DNA of 64,000 nucleotides from Phallusia mammillata (Eukaryota): contig OZ281499.1 in NCBI GenBank assembly GCA_965637545.1, forward strand, positions 21,080,001 to 21,144,000, read 5' to 3'. Below, piece after piece: positions 9,001 through 27,000 of the stretch. How positions within the stretch are numbered: the first letter of the stretch is position 1; each line of letters starts with the position of its first letter. The position numbers were made by a program.

Positions 9001-12000
9001 AATAGGAGCTTGGCATGGAAGTTTTAAATTTGTTTTAGACCCCGAGTTGCCCTTGCCCGAGCCACACCATCTTCCCAAAACGTTCGTTTAAAAAGTTTGG
9101 GAAAAAATGTCGATTCCATACGAACGTCATGCATATGCCATGTATGGTTAAAGTGTAACATGAAATGTGCCACAATTAAACTGTCAATGCCCATACAAAC
9201 GTGCTAGTTGTGCCATGTATGTGGGTAATATGGTTAAATTCGGAATGTAGCCAAACTTTTAGATGAGTAATTCAGTTAAAAAGGTAGCCGAATTTGATTT
9301 TTTTTCTTTTTATACAGGAGTGGATAGGCATTTTCGTTACGCCATGCAGTATGCGTTACAAGCTTATGGTTTGTAGATGTAGTAACTCAGTCAATTAGTT
9401 AGTTATTTCATGCGTAATTATTTCTACTTAATGTTGCAAAAAATGCCTCATGCATATTTAACTACAGCAAAACCAATGGACCTACTTAAGTTTACAAGGC
9501 GTTCAACGTTGTTAAACGTGCGATAAAATGCATATTTCAGCCATGTTTTAAATAGTTGCATGTTCCAGCAAATATGTTGTTATGTAACAAGCAGATGACA
9601 TGCATAATATGTTAATGGTTGCACAAGCTTATATACCGGGAATCCATTTTTGCCGGGTCGACCCTGCGTAATTCCGGCAAATAATAAAAAATCAAGTTTA
9701 GTTAGCTTGTAGTTCAGCCACCAGAAGCGGTCATTGCTCAAAAGTGTGGTTAACTTAAGCGCTCGACTTCAAAGTTACTTTTTTAGCCAAATATTAGCTG
9801 TAGCACCGAAGTGCGCCAAGTGCAAGGAAGGATTCCTTAATTGGCGCAAAAATATTAAAAAGCGTTGCATTTAAGCAAAGTTACTTAAAGCAGTAGCCTT
9901 AATCAACAGATTGGAAAGCATGGTCAATTTTGTGATGGTTTTTGTAAACTTTGTACATCTTCATTGGTTAAAGGAGACTTGACGACGCACAATTTGCCAT
10001 AAGGTGGTGCCACAGAACACTCTACGAATCTTACCAACACCCAAAACATAAGAAATGGAAAAACCACGGCGATTGTTCTTACCATTTTGCCTGAAAAAGA
10101 AACAACAATGCGTTAGTTTTTGATACTCAGAACAGAATTAAAACACAGTTGAGCAGTCAGTAAAAACGTTTTTTTTTCAAAAATAAATAAAACCCCATTG
10201 AAATTGAATATGAGGAAGAGCAAAATGAGTCAAAGCTGCCGACAGAGTCACGACGCCAGAACCGGACGTTTGCAAAGTGGTGGCACGGGGGCTTGTAATT
10301 CAGTAGTTTACACACTCGAAATGGGGTGTTATTTTTAGGGGGCCAACAAAGCATTCGCGTGGGGCGTGCAATTAAAAACAGTAGAAACCGACACCCACCT
10401 CTGCGCCCCCGTCGTCCCGTCTTCCCCTCTTCGCCTGCAATAAAAACACGGCAAGGTTAGAAACATAAACACGTGACTTCTATTCCCACAGTGATTGGTT
10501 ACTGGCGATGAAAGGACGCAGGTAAATTCAGCCGGTAATTGATTCTGATGGCAAACGTGCCTTGGATCGGGTTTACTCCCGCCCGTGTTGCATTTGACAT
10601 TTACCAATTGGTGTTACGTTGTTAGTGCCAGGCGGTTGGCAAGCTTCCAATTGGCCAAAGTCGAGTTTAAGGCGATTTTAATTGAGTTTAACTCTGCCAG
10701 TTGCTAACACCTATCAACTTTCAGTAGACCTGTTGTGAATTGCCAATATTATTTTCATTATAGATTGACTTTATTTCTATCTGTAGAATAGTATGCAAAT
10801 AAAAATACAGAGTATTATGAACGTTTGGAATATCAAAACAACAAACAGAAACACAAAAATCTCATTTAAATGCTTGATCATATGTAGAAGCAAAACTCCA
10901 CGCACCAAAAAACACGCAGAAAAATCAAGGCAAAAAGAAGCAGAATCAGCAAACTCTTTTGCAAAGTGTCGCATAAACTTTGCTCTCCAATCTCGAGATT
11001 TAGTTTACAGTAACGAAAGCCCAAGACACCGGATATATCTATTGTGCTGTGCGAGGGTTTTTACAACGAAGTGAGACAGTCGTCAAGCAGTCAAGTGCGC
11101 CTTTCGACTTCACTGAGCACTCTAGTGCCCACTTGTGGAGCCAGGAGGACCCCTTGAGGCTTTTGTCGGACAATAGAAAAATATCTTGCGTTATCTGGCT
11201 TTGTTCGGACTATTTGTTGTGAAATTATTGCCGGAATTTCAAGGATTTGTCGTTCTTTGTTGCAAAGAGCCTAGGATGTATTTACTATCATGTATTTGTA
11301 ATGTAAACACTTATCTACACGAGTTTCCTGTCCGTATATTCATAAAGAATTTACACAAATATTTAAAACCTATAATAAAGTCACAAATCCAGCATAAAAC
11401 ACATGGATTTTAGGCCGATGAAATATGCAAAGATTAGTGTTTCTTTCAACGGAAATTGCAATATAAAATAAATGACAAAATTGTAGTGTTGCACAAAGCA
11501 CGATCCGCTTTTATCAAGCAGTAGGGCTTACTTAATTAAATTTTAATTACACCTTCCACAAAGCGCGTTTTTGTGCACTGAGCTTTCCTTAATGGACAGG
11601 CCATTGACCTCGACCGGCGCAGATATGCCCACGTGGCCTCAAGTTTATTCTGCAAGCGAGAGACTAGAGATAGTTTGACGTAAAGAGCAAATGGCTTAAA
11701 CGTTCAAGAGTACTCGAAACCGCGACAACAAGTGTCGTATTTCTGTCGCTGGGCAAACCAAGGGCAGATGGGAGGCGACCTACGTTCCAACGGACAATGG
11801 GACGGGGATATGTCAACGAAGCGGATTTCGTTTAATGGATACGGATATGTTTGCTAAGGCTGCGTTGTGGCTGTTCATATAGGTGGAGAAAACTGTATGT
11901 TACGACAAAAAATATGTATTAGGGCTTTTTAATACGTACTTCACTGATGATAATACTAAACTCAGGCAAGCTAGATACAAGATAGATTTTAAATTCGTAA

Positions 12001-24000: not shown

Positions 24001-27000
24001 AAATCCTACACGAGTGGTCGAGTTTCAATTGAGCGGACAAGAGGGGTGCTTGAGGGGATTTCAGATCTAGGTCACGTGATTGGGGCTCGGCAACGAATGC
24101 CGGCTTTAAACTGTTTACTAAGAAATCAACTTTAGTTGAAATGGCAATGTCTTATTTGTACGAAGCAAAGATAGAAAGTGAAAACCCAATTTGTAAAGAA
24201 TTTTAAAATATTTAACTTGAAAGGCAACTTTTCACATTTAAATAATCTACCAAAACCTCAAACACTATGTCCATTTGTGGCAAAGGAAAATAAGTAGGCC
24301 TTTGTTAATGTCTTTTGAATATTAGTTGATCAACTTTTGTAGCCTACAAATTCATTTTGATAAGTTTCATACGACAAGGTCTTCCGAGGTCGCGCAAACT
24401 CAATAGGTAAACTTGCGGTTAATTGAATAGCTTTTGCCGCAATACTGCGCATGTGTTTACTGCGCCAAGCACCGTACAGCAAGATCGAAGGTTTTCTGGC
24501 TGTCTTTGCGGTGTTGTGTCGGAAGAAGATCAAGATAGCTATCAGTGCTAGAAAAACCGCTGACTCTCAGATCAAGATAATGCAGTCGCCAACACTAAAA
24601 GGCAATCTCTCAAGTAAATGGTTTTTGCCGCGCCTTAAAAAGATTGGATCTCCTGCCTTATGTTGCAGCGATAAAACGATATACTTCAAGCAAGGGTACG
24701 AATTGTCAAAACATGGATCTAAACGTCCACCAAATGAAGTGCACAGACCTACTGTTACTCAGTAAATGATTAAATGCACACCTCAACAAATAATCAAGAA
24801 ATATTTGGCTCTACTCTTACAAATATGTTATGAGTCTTCAAGGACGCCAGACCGCCAGCGATTTGAAACAGTTAAAGTGCTTTAAACTGCAGAAAGATGT
24901 CGCCACTAAGTCCGAGGCTTAATTGAGCAAACAACCGCTATGCACTGTTAAATTTACCGTAAGAAAAGCGAAAGTAGCAGATTCCCTACTCGTGGGAAAA
25001 CTCCATTAAGCGGAACCGAATGCGGAAAGCATTTCCGGGTTGTCTTTTGACAGCCGGCGACGCGAAGCGACAGGGGCACCCGCAACAGAACTGGGGCGTA
25101 TTGGGGGCGACGATGGTGTAAACAAGGGTGAATTACCGAAACAAGGAAACTGTGGAAGCAATTGGGTAAGGAAAAAGTTCATGATTTAGAGGTAAATTGG
25201 ACATGATTTTCGGGGTATATATTTAAGAGTGAATTTGACATGATTATCACAAAAACATTTTTTGGCATAAGGTATCAGAGTGTTAAAAATTTTCTTCGCA
25301 AAAGCCGTTAAGGGGTGAAGTAAACTACCAAGAAGAATGTGTATTTTAGTAAGGGTTACTGTGGACCGGAGGTGTGATATTTTCGTAAATTGACAAGTTG
25401 CAAGATTTTATCTTTAGAACGTTATATGGAAACGCCTCGTTACAGGGCTCACGAACGCAGTAAAATCAAAGGCTGAATGCCAGATGAAAGATTCCAGTCG
25501 TTGAAATCTGATAGGACATGTTTTGAAAGTTTACGGTGTATCTTGTTTCACAACCTCAATGGTGTGTGATATAAATTTTGTATAATTCCTATGCGACCTA
25601 TTACAGAAAATCACGCAAAATAAATAAGAACCACATAACGGAAATAACTTACAAAACTACCCACTTAACGTGGTTAAACACGGAATATCCCTACACAATA
25701 CAATACAAAAGGTCAATTTCAAACAGGTAATTGAAGCGTATATAGCTACTGCCAACGTAAGGGAATGTAGAAGTGCAATACAAATTCTTGGGTCAAGGCA
25801 AAGATGTAACTTCATTTCCTAACACCTTGACAGTATAAAGCCTTACTCCGCGGAAAAACACTTTACCTGAAGTGGTGACGCTAGGTCGATAGGCAAGTGA
25901 CAATGCATTAGGTAAGTAGGCTGGTTCTTAGATTCGATAGATCGCAAGTACTGCAAAACTTTTAGCGTGAAGCAAACAATGTAAGCAGAAGCGACCATCT
26001 CGAAAGGGCAAGGCGGTGTGGTCCTTTGATGACGTAACAAACGGCGTACGCGCGAAGAGACGTTGACAAATAGAACTTTAATCACCAATTGTTGTAGGGG
26101 CATTGTTCCGACGTAGGTTAGGTGCGTACAAATGGCAGGGTTCGAGCGTTTGATGGTCGTAGTGTGTACGACGTTATTGAACAAAGTAATTCGCGGCTTT
26201 TTGCGTAAGGTCTATTATGCTTCACCGCAACGTTGGAATAATATTTGGTTTTGATAGTGACAGGTAGTATCTTATTGTGTGCTTGTACGTTCATAAATGC
26301 CAGTAACTACGTGTCGGATAGTTATACTCACAAAACGCGCATATTAAACACCTTGACGTCCGTTTCACAGAAAGCTCGTTTGATTGGTGCCAAGAGAATT
26401 TTATGTCAAATACCAAACGCGTTATAGTTTCATCCAGCAAGTCAAAAACCTAATTGACACACAAGGGTAAGTCTCAAACCTCAACAGCCACGAGAGCCAG
26501 AAAAAATACATTCACATATAAACACTTAGTTTCTACCCTTAGCTTCTGACAAACACATTAACCCCGATCCATCAACGTCTTTTACAACAAAAGAATCGTA
26601 TTCCAGTGGCACCAGAGACCAGTTGCACAACAATCGCTGACAAACATATCCGTATACTTGTGTAGTTCGCTGATGGGTGGGTTTTAAATTACGTGTATTG
26701 GGTGGGATTAGATTTTTTAGCGGAAGCAACGGAATTCGTTATTTGATATGTCGTGATTTAAAAATACGAAAGAAAAGTCTTCATAGTCAAACAACAAGAT
26801 GAGATTGTAGTAGATTGTGCAAACTATCGCTTTGGAAAACATGCACTAAATATCAAAGATTTCATTTAGAAATTTCCTGCTAGTCACTAAGGTGGTAGTA
26901 GTATGGACGATGCCCAACTGAAATAGTAGGAGCGCAAACTTCCACAAAAAGACATAAACTCTCATACCTTTAGGTCCAGGTGGGCAAGTACAAGCTGATG

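What the first reader, a model, noticed from the sequence alone, without database searches (positions are those of the whole stretch)
10083..26967. 8-nt microexon and giant-intron position match vertebrate MACIT genes
The architecture is CxC exon (phase 1), 16.5-kb intron, basic GxxGRRG exon (phase 1-1), then an 8-nt exon restoring phase 0. An 8-bp exon is a reported peculiarity of vertebrate collagen XIII. My recollection is that COL23A1 and COL25A1 also have their largest intron after the CxC exon, followed by a short basic exon and an 8-nt exon. That would make this microexon and regulatory intron older than vertebrates.
Basis: partly seen in the sequence, partly recalled or inferred. Interest (0 to 1): 0.65.

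Follow-up and report, generated by a model that had tools for sequence, protein, structure and literature searches.

The report
Eight-base exon in membrane collagen gene
The window holds the front half of a membrane-anchored collagen gene in which an exon only eight bases long puts the reading frame right after a very long intron, a layout that appears to be shared with human collagen XXV and so may be very old.

Summary
On the minus strand lies the 5' part of a type II transmembrane collagen gene with 24 modelled exons. Only three of them are not phase 0-0: the furin/CxC exon (27046-26968, phase 0 to 1), a 36-nt basic exon (10434-10399, phase 1-1) and an 8-nt exon (10090-10083, phase 1 to 0). 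A 16,533-nt intron separates the first two.

The 8-nt exon is the only candidate that restores the frame and keeps Gly-X-Y. Its acceptor ranks at the 99.93rd percentile of AG sites on the strand. Signals of that strength occur twice in 128 kb across 29 spacings.

Two unnamed database fragments from distant relatives stop by running into the intron at exactly these two boundaries, which points to conservation.

On the vertebrate side, papers show that human COL25A1 exon 3 also ends in phase 1 inside a Gly codon, is followed by an intron of at least 207 kb, and has Arg128 just downstream. A 2008 study found a small-exon discrepancy at "exon 4" in both Col13a1 and Col25a1.

Three things stayed unverified: the 8-nt size in vertebrates, the window's taxon, and any regulatory role for the intron. 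No RNA data were available. Verdict: a real feature, interpretation partly supported, moderate interest.

The parts
29919..30251 (-). Exon 1 coding part (333 nt, phase 0-0): a short cytosolic tail, a hydrophobic membrane span and a juxtamembrane coiled coil. Donor TTG|gttagt.
   Evidence: ORF, ATG at 30251; residues 1-31 disordered, one helix 32-110, 57 residues at pLDDT 90 or more; three-copy model of residues 58-111 scores 0.83 against a best control of 0.01.
27047..29918 (-). Intron 1, 2,872 nt, phase 0.
26968..27046 (-). Exon 2, the 'CxC exon' (79 nt, phase 0 to 1): furin-type RLKR, then C-T-C, then the first collagen triplets. It ends on the first base of a Gly codon.
   Evidence: 57% identity to P0003 over 28 residues, starting exactly at the first exon residue (pairwise E 6e-10); 44% over 25 residues to P0001.
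10435..26967 (-). Long intron, 16,533 nt, phase 1 inside a Gly codon. It makes up more than half of the roughly 30 kb of gene in the window.
   Evidence: No Rfam family (27), no tandem repeat (28), no Pfam domain in 10 of 10 ORFs scanned (50), no repeat of 40 nt or more (51). G+C is 0.40-0.44 here, against 0.35-0.41 in the rest of the window.
10399..10434 (-). Exon 3, the basic collagen exon (36 nt, phase 1-1): (G)EEGKTGRRGRR(G). It could be skipped without a frame shift.
   Evidence: the only multi-triplet phase 1-1 candidate; acceptor at the 94.8th percentile. P0001 carries GRRGRRG at the same place.
10091..10398 (-). Intron of 308 nt upstream of the microexon. It holds a ctaac branch motif at 10116-10112 and a pyrimidine tract.
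10083..10090 (-). Exon 4, the 8-nt microexon GCAAAATG (phase 1 to 0). It completes Gly and adds Lys-Met.
   Evidence: P0001 reads G-K-V and then V-S, which is what a GTAAGY donor gives when read through.
10029..10034 (-). Second GTAAGA. This alternative donor would give a 56-nt exon (10090-10035) that also restores the frame but inserts a hydrophobic, non-collagen stretch.
9664..10082 (-). Intron of 419 nt downstream of the microexon.
9637..9663 (-). Exon 5, 27 nt, phase 0-0: GRPGKNGFP.
898..8623 (-). Nineteen further phase 0-0 collagen exons of 27 to 108 nt: 8623-8579, 8411-8385, 8213-8169, 8103-8068, 7833-7747, 6314-6222, 6104-6063, 5946-5920, 3968-3933, 3815-3762, 3685-3623, 3519-3412, 2498-2430, 2364-2305, 1977-1915, 1543-1517, 1350-1297, 1117-1091 and 924-898. 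The helix is interrupted at 7761-7747 and 6314-6303. The gene runs off the window.

Best explanation
The window holds the 5' half of a MACIT-type (collagen XIII/XXIII/XXV-like) type II transmembrane collagen gene on the minus strand.

Exon 1 makes the cytosolic tail, the membrane span and a trimerising coiled coil. Exon 2 carries a furin-type site and a CxC pair and opens the collagen helix, ending one base into a Gly codon. A 16.5-kb intron follows. Then a 36-nt basic exon keeps phase 1, and an 8-nt constitutive microexon (two bases of Gly, then Lys and Met) returns the frame to phase 0, which all later collagen exons use.

The microexon is probably recognised by intron definition. It sits between short introns of 308 and 419 nt. 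It has a consensus branch motif at -23, the best pyrimidine tract and acceptor of the gene, and a G|GTAAGA donor.

This part of the layout is shared with at least two other species: the CxC exon ending in a split Gly, the basic exon, and a frame-restoring exon of the same 8-nt length. In its first features it is also shared with human COL25A1. It is therefore most likely inherited from a common ancestral gene.

Shown: the sequence anatomy, the phases, the signal strengths, the boundaries in the relatives' fragments, and the COL25A1 phase and intron size from print. Inferred: that the exon is spliced as drawn, that it is constitutive, and that it is homologous to a vertebrate microexon.
For: Of 24 exons, 21 are phase 0-0, and E2, E3 and E4 form a closed 0-1-1-0 block.

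No other solution fits; of 23 candidates, only the 8-nt exon keeps Gly-X-Y. By my reading, no GT or GC donor inside E3 and no other AG at E5 allows a direct in-frame join.

Signal strength: 2 occurrences in 128 kb across 29 spacings; 99.93rd percentile; above all 20 leave-one-out acceptor scores.

Relatives: a HMMER scan of 1.84 billion representatives with exon 1 alone gave 3 hits at E of 0.001 or less, of which 2 are relatives.
- P0001 (E 8.1e-07) reads ...RRKRSFGGCQCPSGPPGPKGEPGDDGRRGRRGKVVSIQCF... It has the same GRRGRRG-K, and then Val-Ser as a read-through GTAAGY donor gives.
- P0003 (E 3.6e-04) reads ...RMKRSSSGCGCPPGPKGMFYNF... After PPGPK its next two residues are Gly-Met, the same as the window's read-through of G|GTATG.
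- the similarity to P0003 starts at the first residue of E2.

MACIT-like protein features:
- a single helix 32-110 after a disordered tail.
- the three-copy model scores 0.83 (best of 3 controls 0.01). The mark was reached by 21 of 30 proteins solved as pairs of one chain and by 0 of 23 solved as single chains. The runs agree in at least 100% of contacts and the partner pLDDT is at least 88. The tool cautions that its calibration used two copies and that a pass may come from memory of solved coiled coils.
- P0001's second-nearest Atlas cluster is named 'collagen alpha-1(XXV) chain-like' (score 0.95; a lead only).

Vertebrate side: (COL25A1 exon 3 ends in phase 1 in Gly123; intron 3 at least 206,831 bp; Arg128). 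One search places furin site RIAR112 inside that exon's codon range. (Exalign) place a small exon next to exon 4 in rodent Col13a1 and Col25a1.
Against: There is no RNA evidence for any junction.

A second GTAAGA at 10034 gives an equally frame-correct 56-nt exon.

The first small PWM gave E3's acceptor only 0.1, far below the training range of 9.7-18.9. An intron-only PWM put it mid-range at 5.9.

P0001 and P0003 are unnamed. They may be ab initio models rather than transcripts, so the read-through signature is only consistent with these boundaries, not proof of them.

No full-length relative was found in 3 of 3 word-indexed searches, so the E4-to-E5 junction is not seen in any database protein.

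The C-terminal MACIT motif lies outside the window.

The intron upstream of the CxC exon is phase 0 here and phase 2 in COL25A1. From the published residue numbers, R112 and the split Gly123, the COL25A1 split Gly lies 10 residues after the furin Arg. Here it lies 12 after, so the positions match only if one allows a few residues of length difference.

The 8-nt size in vertebrates was not confirmed in any text.
Confidence: 0.72

Rival explanations
1. The microexon is real in this lineage, but its likeness to the vertebrate genes is coincidence or convergence. Collagen genes are full of short exons and split Gly codons. A frame-restoring exon could have arisen independently, or the recalled vertebrate 8-bp exon may sit elsewhere in those genes.
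For: - No text confirms an 8-nt exon at this place in vertebrates.
- The upstream intron phase differs from COL25A1.
- The distance from the furin Arg to the split Gly differs: 12 residues here and 10 in COL25A1.
- COL13A1 has an extra in-frame cassette 'exon 3'.
- Exalign itself read its result as a human intron loss, not as a microexon.
Against: Four independent features coincide with COL25A1: the furin site in the same exon, phase 1 inside Gly at its end, a very large following intron, and a basic residue just after. In addition, the same 'exon 4' small-exon anomaly appears in two paralogues.
Confidence: 0.2
2. The exon is 56 nt long (10090-10035), using the second GTAAGA donor. It would insert a 16-residue hydrophobic interruption into the first collagen domain. 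Alternatively, both donors are used.
For:: same acceptor, same donor hexamer (GTAAGA, 5 of 6 to consensus), stop-free, restores the frame.
Against: It breaks Gly-X-Y right after six triplets. The stretch is T-rich and intron-like. P0001's read-through tail after G-K-V has a different sequence and reaches a stop after 20 more residues, and by eye it shows no likeness to the window's tail. I did not align the two tails.
Confidence: 0.05
3. The 8-nt exon is a chance juxtaposition of signals. The frame is restored by an exon I did not recognise, or the locus is a decaying copy.
For: The splicing is only predicted. Very short exons are often false positives.
Against:: it is unique among the candidates and has extreme signal strength. 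All 24 modelled exons are open with canonical sites. The GRRGRRG-K boundary is shared with P0001.
Confidence: 0.03

Closest known systems
Human COL25A1 (collagen XXV, CLAC-P), MANE transcript NM_198721.4
   Same: - The furin site lies in the exon before the long intron: RIAR112 falls within exon 3, codons 101-122.
- That exon ends on the first base of a Gly codon (c.367, Gly123).
- The following intron is very long, at least 206,831 bp of a span of at most about 634 kb.
- A basic residue follows soon after (Arg128).
- A small exon adjoins exon 4 in the mouse gene.
- Many short in-frame collagen exons are alternatively spliced.
   Different: - Exon 3 is 68 nt and starts in phase 2. Here the exon is 79 nt and starts in phase 0.
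- The split Gly lies 10 residues after the furin Arg, not 12.
- The gene is about twenty times larger.
- The 8-nt size of its small exon was not confirmed here.
- The published coordinates do not strictly exclude a still larger intron 11 or 32.
Human and mouse COL13A1 (collagen XIII)
   Same: It is a type II transmembrane collagen with a furin site (RRRR107). It has 27-nt phase 0-0 exons (c.523 to c.549). Exalign places a small exon at 'exon 4' in rodents. I did not see those papers.
   Different: An in-frame cassette 'exon 3' lies before exon 4, so there may be one exon more between the CxC exon and the small exon. I could not obtain intron sizes or phases at the 5' end.
COL23A1 (collagen XXIII)
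   Same: It is the third vertebrate MACIT paralogue, with a furin site in NC1.
   Different: I could read nothing about its gene structure.
C. elegans col-99 and other invertebrate MACITs (Tu et al. 2015, PMC4678570)
   Same: Invertebrates have a single MACIT gene. Shared features are a type II topology, a conserved juxtamembrane furin site, two conserved NC1 cysteines and alternatively spliced short exons.
   Different: The passages I read contain no comparison of intron positions or phases.
Conserved neural microexons (SRRM3/4-dependent programme)
   Same: Both are very short exons conserved over long evolutionary distances and flanked by strong signals.
   Different: By my recollection, those exons are mostly multiples of three, are alternatively included, and carry a UGC motif near the acceptor. 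Here the exon is not a multiple of three and must be constitutive to keep the frame. I see no TGC in the 30 nt before the acceptor.

Membership tests
MACIT collagens (criteria of Tu et al. 2015, PMC4678570) | Predicted type II transmembrane topology | tested here: met
   Exon 1 has about 31 disordered N-terminal residues and then one helix, 32-110, that begins with a 26-residue hydrophobic span. No dedicated topology predictor was run.
MACIT collagens (criteria of Tu et al. 2015, PMC4678570) | [quoted passage not shown] | tested here: met
   Gly-X-Y exons run from 26968 down to 898. There is a non-collagen break at 7761-7747 and 6314-6303, and smaller imperfections at 6104, 2498 and 2364.
MACIT collagens (criteria of Tu et al. 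2015, PMC4678570) | Conserved C-terminal motif with two cysteines | not testable with these tools
   The gene runs off the low end of the window, and no C-terminal exon is present.
MACIT collagens (criteria of Tu et al. 2015, PMC4678570) | Juxtamembrane furin cleavage site in NC1 | tested here: met
   The motif RLKR is in exon 2, with RRKR in P0001 and RMKR in P0003 at the aligned place. Cleavage itself was not tested.
MACIT collagens (criteria of Tu et al. 2015, PMC4678570) | Coiled coil after the membrane span that aids trimerisation | tested here: met
   three copies of residues 58-111 score 0.83 against a best control of 0.01, with in-register contacts at a heptad-like spacing. The mark was reached by 21 of 30 solved homomers and 0 of 23 single chains. 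The pass may reflect likeness to solved coiled coils.
MACIT collagens (criteria of Tu et al. 2015, PMC4678570) | Best reciprocal hits are collagens XIII, XXIII or XXV | tested here: inconclusive
   Searches went exon by exon only. Exon 1 found no vertebrate MACIT at E of 0.001 or less. The Atlas lead for P0001 is 'collagen alpha-1(XXV) chain-like' at 0.95. The joined model was not searched.
   Window. COL25A1: c.367 is the last base of exon 3 and the first base of Gly123. P0003 has the same Gly-Met read-through.
   Window: 16,533 nt against a next largest of 2,872 nt, within the part of the gene that is present. COL25A1: intron 3 is at least 206,831 bp and very probably the largest. COL13A1 and COL23A1 were not testable.
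   Window: 36 nt with GRRGRR. P0001: GRRGRRG. COL25A1: only Arg128 is documented, and I did not see exon 4's limits.
   Window: predicted. P0001: compatible. Vertebrates: no eukaryotic genome collection was on hand and no text gives the size. The only indirect support is Exalign's small exon at 'exon 4'.

The most novel reading that the evidence does not exclude
The whole 5' block of MACIT genes was already present in the single ancestral gene before the vertebrate genome duplications, and has been kept for more than half a billion years. The block comprises the furin/CxC exon ending in a split Gly, the dominant long intron, the 36-nt basic exon and the 8-nt frame-restoring microexon. That would make this one of the oldest known constitutive exons whose length is not a multiple of three. 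Because gene predictors break at exactly these two introns (P0001 and P0003 both end there), the block may also explain why MACITs were reported as absent from several animal phyla.
Probability: 0.5. Interest if true: 0.55.

Novelty: new member of a known kind. Interest (0 to 1): 0.42.

Why it matters
A constitutive 8-nt exon is at the limit of what the spliceosome and annotation pipelines can handle. If it is conserved from invertebrates to three vertebrate paralogues, it would be a clean natural case for studying how such exons are defined and why they are not lost.

It also has a practical side. Models of these genes are cut at the long intron and at the microexon. The membrane anchor is then separated from the collagen part, and the family can be missed in surveys that require a type II topology. 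Tu et al. 2015 used such a criterion and reported no MACIT in several phyla.

The basic GRRGRRG stretch is conserved next to the microexon. It is a candidate binding or processing site worth testing.

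Tried and rejected
1. Full-length relatives: three word-indexed searches found nothing. These were exon 1 with 'longer' lengths (82 candidates, none scored); alignment A1 with 'longer' (8,000 candidates scored, none passed); and P0001 residues 119-158 with 'longer' (32 candidates, none passed). The tool itself calls such blanks weak evidence.

3. P0002, the third HMMER hit (E 2.3e-05, 1,086 aa, 6 stretches), is a repetitive coiled-coil protein. I dropped it as a compositional match. The weak Pfam Gp58 hit of exon 1 is of the same kind (E 0.0048, 15.7 bits against a cut-off of 34.5).

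4. BLASTP of the E3 frame against P0001 showed no alignment of the GRRGRRG stretch, probably because of composition adjustment. That match is read by eye.

5. Atlas search with exon 1 gave only single-pass membrane protein look-alikes below 0.9. These are leads only.

6. The first PWM was overfitted: 13 sites, with exon positions trained on phase-0 exons. I replaced it with the intron-only, leave-one-out version.

7. Searches for content in the long intron found nothing: Rfam, tandem repeats (28), Pfam on 10 ORFs (50) and repeats (51). Ten more ORFs elsewhere in the window also had no Pfam hit.

8. Literature searches for an 8-bp, 8-nt or micro exon in COL13A1, COL23A1 or COL25A1 returned no paper that states it. 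PMC4890022 and PMC5740500 mention these genes for other reasons. The COL13A1 disease papers gave only the exon c.523-549 and the cassette exons 3, 5, 6 and 30.

9. I considered an SRRM4-type neural microexon. There is no TGC near the acceptor, and the exon must be constitutive.

10. I considered a recursive-splicing site. The microexon is not inside the long intron but lies beyond exon 3.

11. I considered a direct E3-to-E5 join through other donors or acceptors. No in-frame GT, GC or AG exists (my reading).

Full report
**What is there**

The window has no N. Read on the minus strand, it holds the 5' part of a collagen gene.

- Exon 1 (30251-29919) starts at an ATG. It encodes a short tail, a 26-residue hydrophobic span and a helical stretch.
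- Exon 2 (27046-26968, 79 nt) encodes DNVETAPVNFRLKRSASACTCPPGPK and ends on the first base of a Gly codon.
- An intron of 16,533 nt follows.
- Exon 3 (10434-10399, 36 nt) is read in phase 1 as (G)EEGKTGRRGRR(G).
- Exon 4 (10090-10083) is the eight bases GCAAAATG. It completes the Gly and adds Lys and Met.
- Exon 5 (9663-9637) is GRPGKNGFP in phase 0.
- Nineteen more exons of 27 to 108 nt follow down to 898, all phase 0-0. The gene then leaves the window.

Of the 24 modelled exons, only exons 2, 3 and 4 are not phase 0-0. Together they form a closed 0-1-1-0 block. Every coordinate and phase in the finding is correct.

**Is the 8-nt exon more than chance?**

- Between exons 3 and 5 there are 23 stop-free AG..GT candidates that would restore the frame. 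Only 10090-10083 keeps Gly at every third place.
- I searched for a strong acceptor (at least 80% pyrimidine, YAG), then 2 to 30 nt, then GTAAG. This occurs twice in both strands of the whole window over 29 spacings, and one occurrence is this exon.
- An intron-only matrix built from 20 other acceptors of the gene gives the microexon's acceptor 14.8. The best leave-one-out score of the 20 is 14.0. The score is at the 99.93rd percentile of 2,955 AG sites on the strand.
- A ctaac branch motif lies 23 nt upstream, and the flanking introns are short at 308 and 419 nt.
- Exon 3 is the only multi-triplet phase 1-1 Gly-X-Y exon among 7 candidates between 30000 and 9600. Its acceptor is ordinary: 5.9, the 94.8th percentile. 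An earlier overfitted matrix gave it only 0.1.
- By my reading, no other donor in exon 3 and no other acceptor at exon 5 allows a direct in-frame join. Some small exon is therefore required.
- One rival remains. A second GTAAGA at 10034 would give a 56-nt exon that also restores the frame but inserts a hydrophobic non-collagen stretch.

No transcript data were available, so all splicing is predicted.

**Searches, exon by exon**

This leaves a reciprocal-best-hit test of the whole protein undone.

Exon 1 alone, scanned with HMMER against 1.84 billion representatives, gave 3 hits at E of 0.001 or less. One of them, P0002, is a repetitive coiled-coil protein that I dropped. The other two are short unnamed proteins.

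- P0001 (178 aa, E 8.1e-07, 33% identity) has the same tail, membrane span and helix. It then reads RRKRSFGGCQCPSGPPGPKGEPGDDGRRGRRGKVVSIQCF..., with a stop 13 residues further on.
- P0003 (167 aa, E 3.6e-04) reads ...RMKRSSSGCGCPPGPKGMFYNF..., with a stop soon after.

Both look like models or transcripts that run into an intron.

- In P0003, Gly-Met follows PPGPK, just as the window gives when G|GTATG is read through. Its similarity to the window starts exactly at the first residue of exon 2 (57% over 28 residues).
- In P0001, the basic GRRGRRG is followed by Lys, one more residue, and then Val-Ser. That is what an 8-nt exon followed by GTAAGY gives when read through.

This fits conservation of both boundaries in species whose exon 1 is only 24-33% identical to the window's. 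It is not proof.

Three word-indexed searches for full-length relatives found none. The exon 4-to-5 junction is therefore not seen in any database protein.

**Is it a MACIT?**

Tu et al. 2015 (PMC4678570; I read passages) define the family by three criteria: type II topology, an interrupted collagenous ectodomain, and a conserved C-terminal motif. They also note a conserved juxtamembrane furin site and a coiled coil.

- Topology fits. The AlphaFold model of exon 1 has residues 1-31 disordered and a single helix 32-110 (mean pLDDT 77.3; 57 residues at 90 or more).
- Interruptions are present.
- RLKR sits where P0001 has RRKR and P0003 has RMKR.
- Three copies of residues 58-111 are modelled as a parallel in-register bundle. 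The score is 0.83 against a best of three controls of 0.01. The mark was reached by 21 of 30 proteins solved as pairs of one chain and by 0 of 23 solved as single chains. The runs agree in at least 100% of contacts and the partner pLDDT is at least 88. The tool warns that its calibration used two copies and that a pass may reflect memory of solved coiled coils.
- The C-terminal motif lies outside the window and could not be tested.
- An Atlas look-up of P0001 gives a cluster named 'collagen alpha-1(XXV) chain-like' as second hit at 0.95. This is a lead only.

I file the gene as MACIT-like, with one defining feature untested.

**The vertebrate side**

No eukaryotic genome collection was on hand, so I relied on papers.

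PMC12669723 (passages) gives the following for human COL25A1.
- Exon 3 is r.300_367, and c.367 is its last base and the first base of Gly123. This is the same phase-1 split of a Gly codon as here.
- Tu et al. place the furin site at RIAR112, which is inside that exon.
- A deletion of exons 1-3 spans 109,262,132-109,332,470. A deletion of exons 4-11 spans 108,931,745-109,055,301 (hg38). Intron 3 is therefore at least 206,831 bp.
- With the exon 33-38 deletion starting at 108,698,908, the whole span is at most about 634 kb. Intron 3 is very probably the largest intron, although the coordinates do not strictly exclude a larger intron 11 or 32.
- The variant c.382C>T, p.Arg128*, shows a basic residue five places after the split Gly.
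- The same paper renumbers an older 'exons 4-10' deletion as 'exons 4-11'. The cause is not stated.

Exalign (PMC2377436; passages) lists a 'human intron loss' at exon 4 in both Col25a1 and Col13a1 against mouse or rat. It discusses these under small exons that are hard to align. That is what a tiny exon next to exon 4, annotated in rodents but merged in the human record of 2008, would produce.

Points against a full match:
- COL25A1 exon 3 starts in phase 2, and the window's exon 2 starts in phase 0.
- The split Gly lies 10 residues after the furin Arg in COL25A1 and 12 here.
- COL13A1 has an in-frame cassette 'exon 3' (PMC4678414).

The statement that collagen XIII has an 8-bp exon is in my memory too, from the gene-structure papers of 1991 and 1999, which I did not see. 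None of six searches found it in print in the held library. I found nothing on COL23A1. Supplementary files, which may hold exon tables, were closed.

**Taxon**

I could not name the organism. I do not take the window for human.
- Exon 1 found no vertebrate MACIT among 1.84 billion representatives.
- 24 exons fit into 30 kb.
- The nearest relatives are only 24-33% identical in exon 1.

'Older than vertebrates' is therefore a reasonable inference, not a result.

**The long intron**

I found nothing in it: no Rfam family, no tandem repeat (28), no Pfam domain in 10 ORFs (50) and no repeat of 40 nt or more (51). Its G+C is 0.40-0.44, against 0.35-0.41 in the rest of the window. A regulatory role is untested.

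**Verdict**

The feature is real at the level of sequence, and the 8-nt exon is very likely genuine. The gene is a MACIT-type collagen. The layout matches human COL25A1 in the features I could check from print. The key point, an 8-nt exon at the same place in vertebrates, remains unverified. The finding is of moderate interest: a new member of a known kind, with a plausible but unproven claim of very old microexon conservation.

Noticed in passing
window 36460-44879, minus strand: There are several caspase-like exon frames in tandem upstream of the collagen gene. Four of five scanned frames hit Peptidase_C14: 37590-38099 (E 1.1e-07), 36460-36804 (E 2.1e-11), and 40637-41026 and 43178-43483 (both weak and below the cut-off). 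The frame 44589-44879 carries an SHGDG-like stretch but had no Pfam hit. This suggests two or three tandem caspase genes.
   Followed up: partly
window 777-763, minus strand: A candidate 15-nt exon (GPAGK) has a good pyrimidine tract and a gtaaat donor. It would split a Gly-X-Y triplet, and the next exon is not in the window. It may be a second microexon or a chance site.
   Followed up: no
window 6104-6063 and 2498-2430, minus strand: Two exons begin with two extra residues, VP and IP, followed by the same GPRGPPG stretch. Each comes after an exon ending in G-x-A. This looks like an internally duplicated module with a matching helix imperfection.
   Followed up: no
P0001 and P0003 (library proteins): The only two relatives found are truncated at the microexon and at the long intron respectively. 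No full-length model turned up. Gene models of this family seem to break at exactly these places. That could contribute to reports that MACITs are absent from some phyla.
   Followed up: partly
window 26968 to 10090, minus strand: Exon 3 is phase 1-1, so exon 2 could be spliced straight to the microexon without a frame shift. That would remove the basic GRRGRR stretch. It is a possible cassette, like the alternatively spliced COL1 exons of collagen XIII.
   Followed up: no
window 6314 or 6302, minus strand: Exon 11 has two in-frame acceptors, giving a 93-nt or an 81-nt exon. The upstream one adds YRRQ to the non-collagen break. I could not tell which is used.
   Followed up: no
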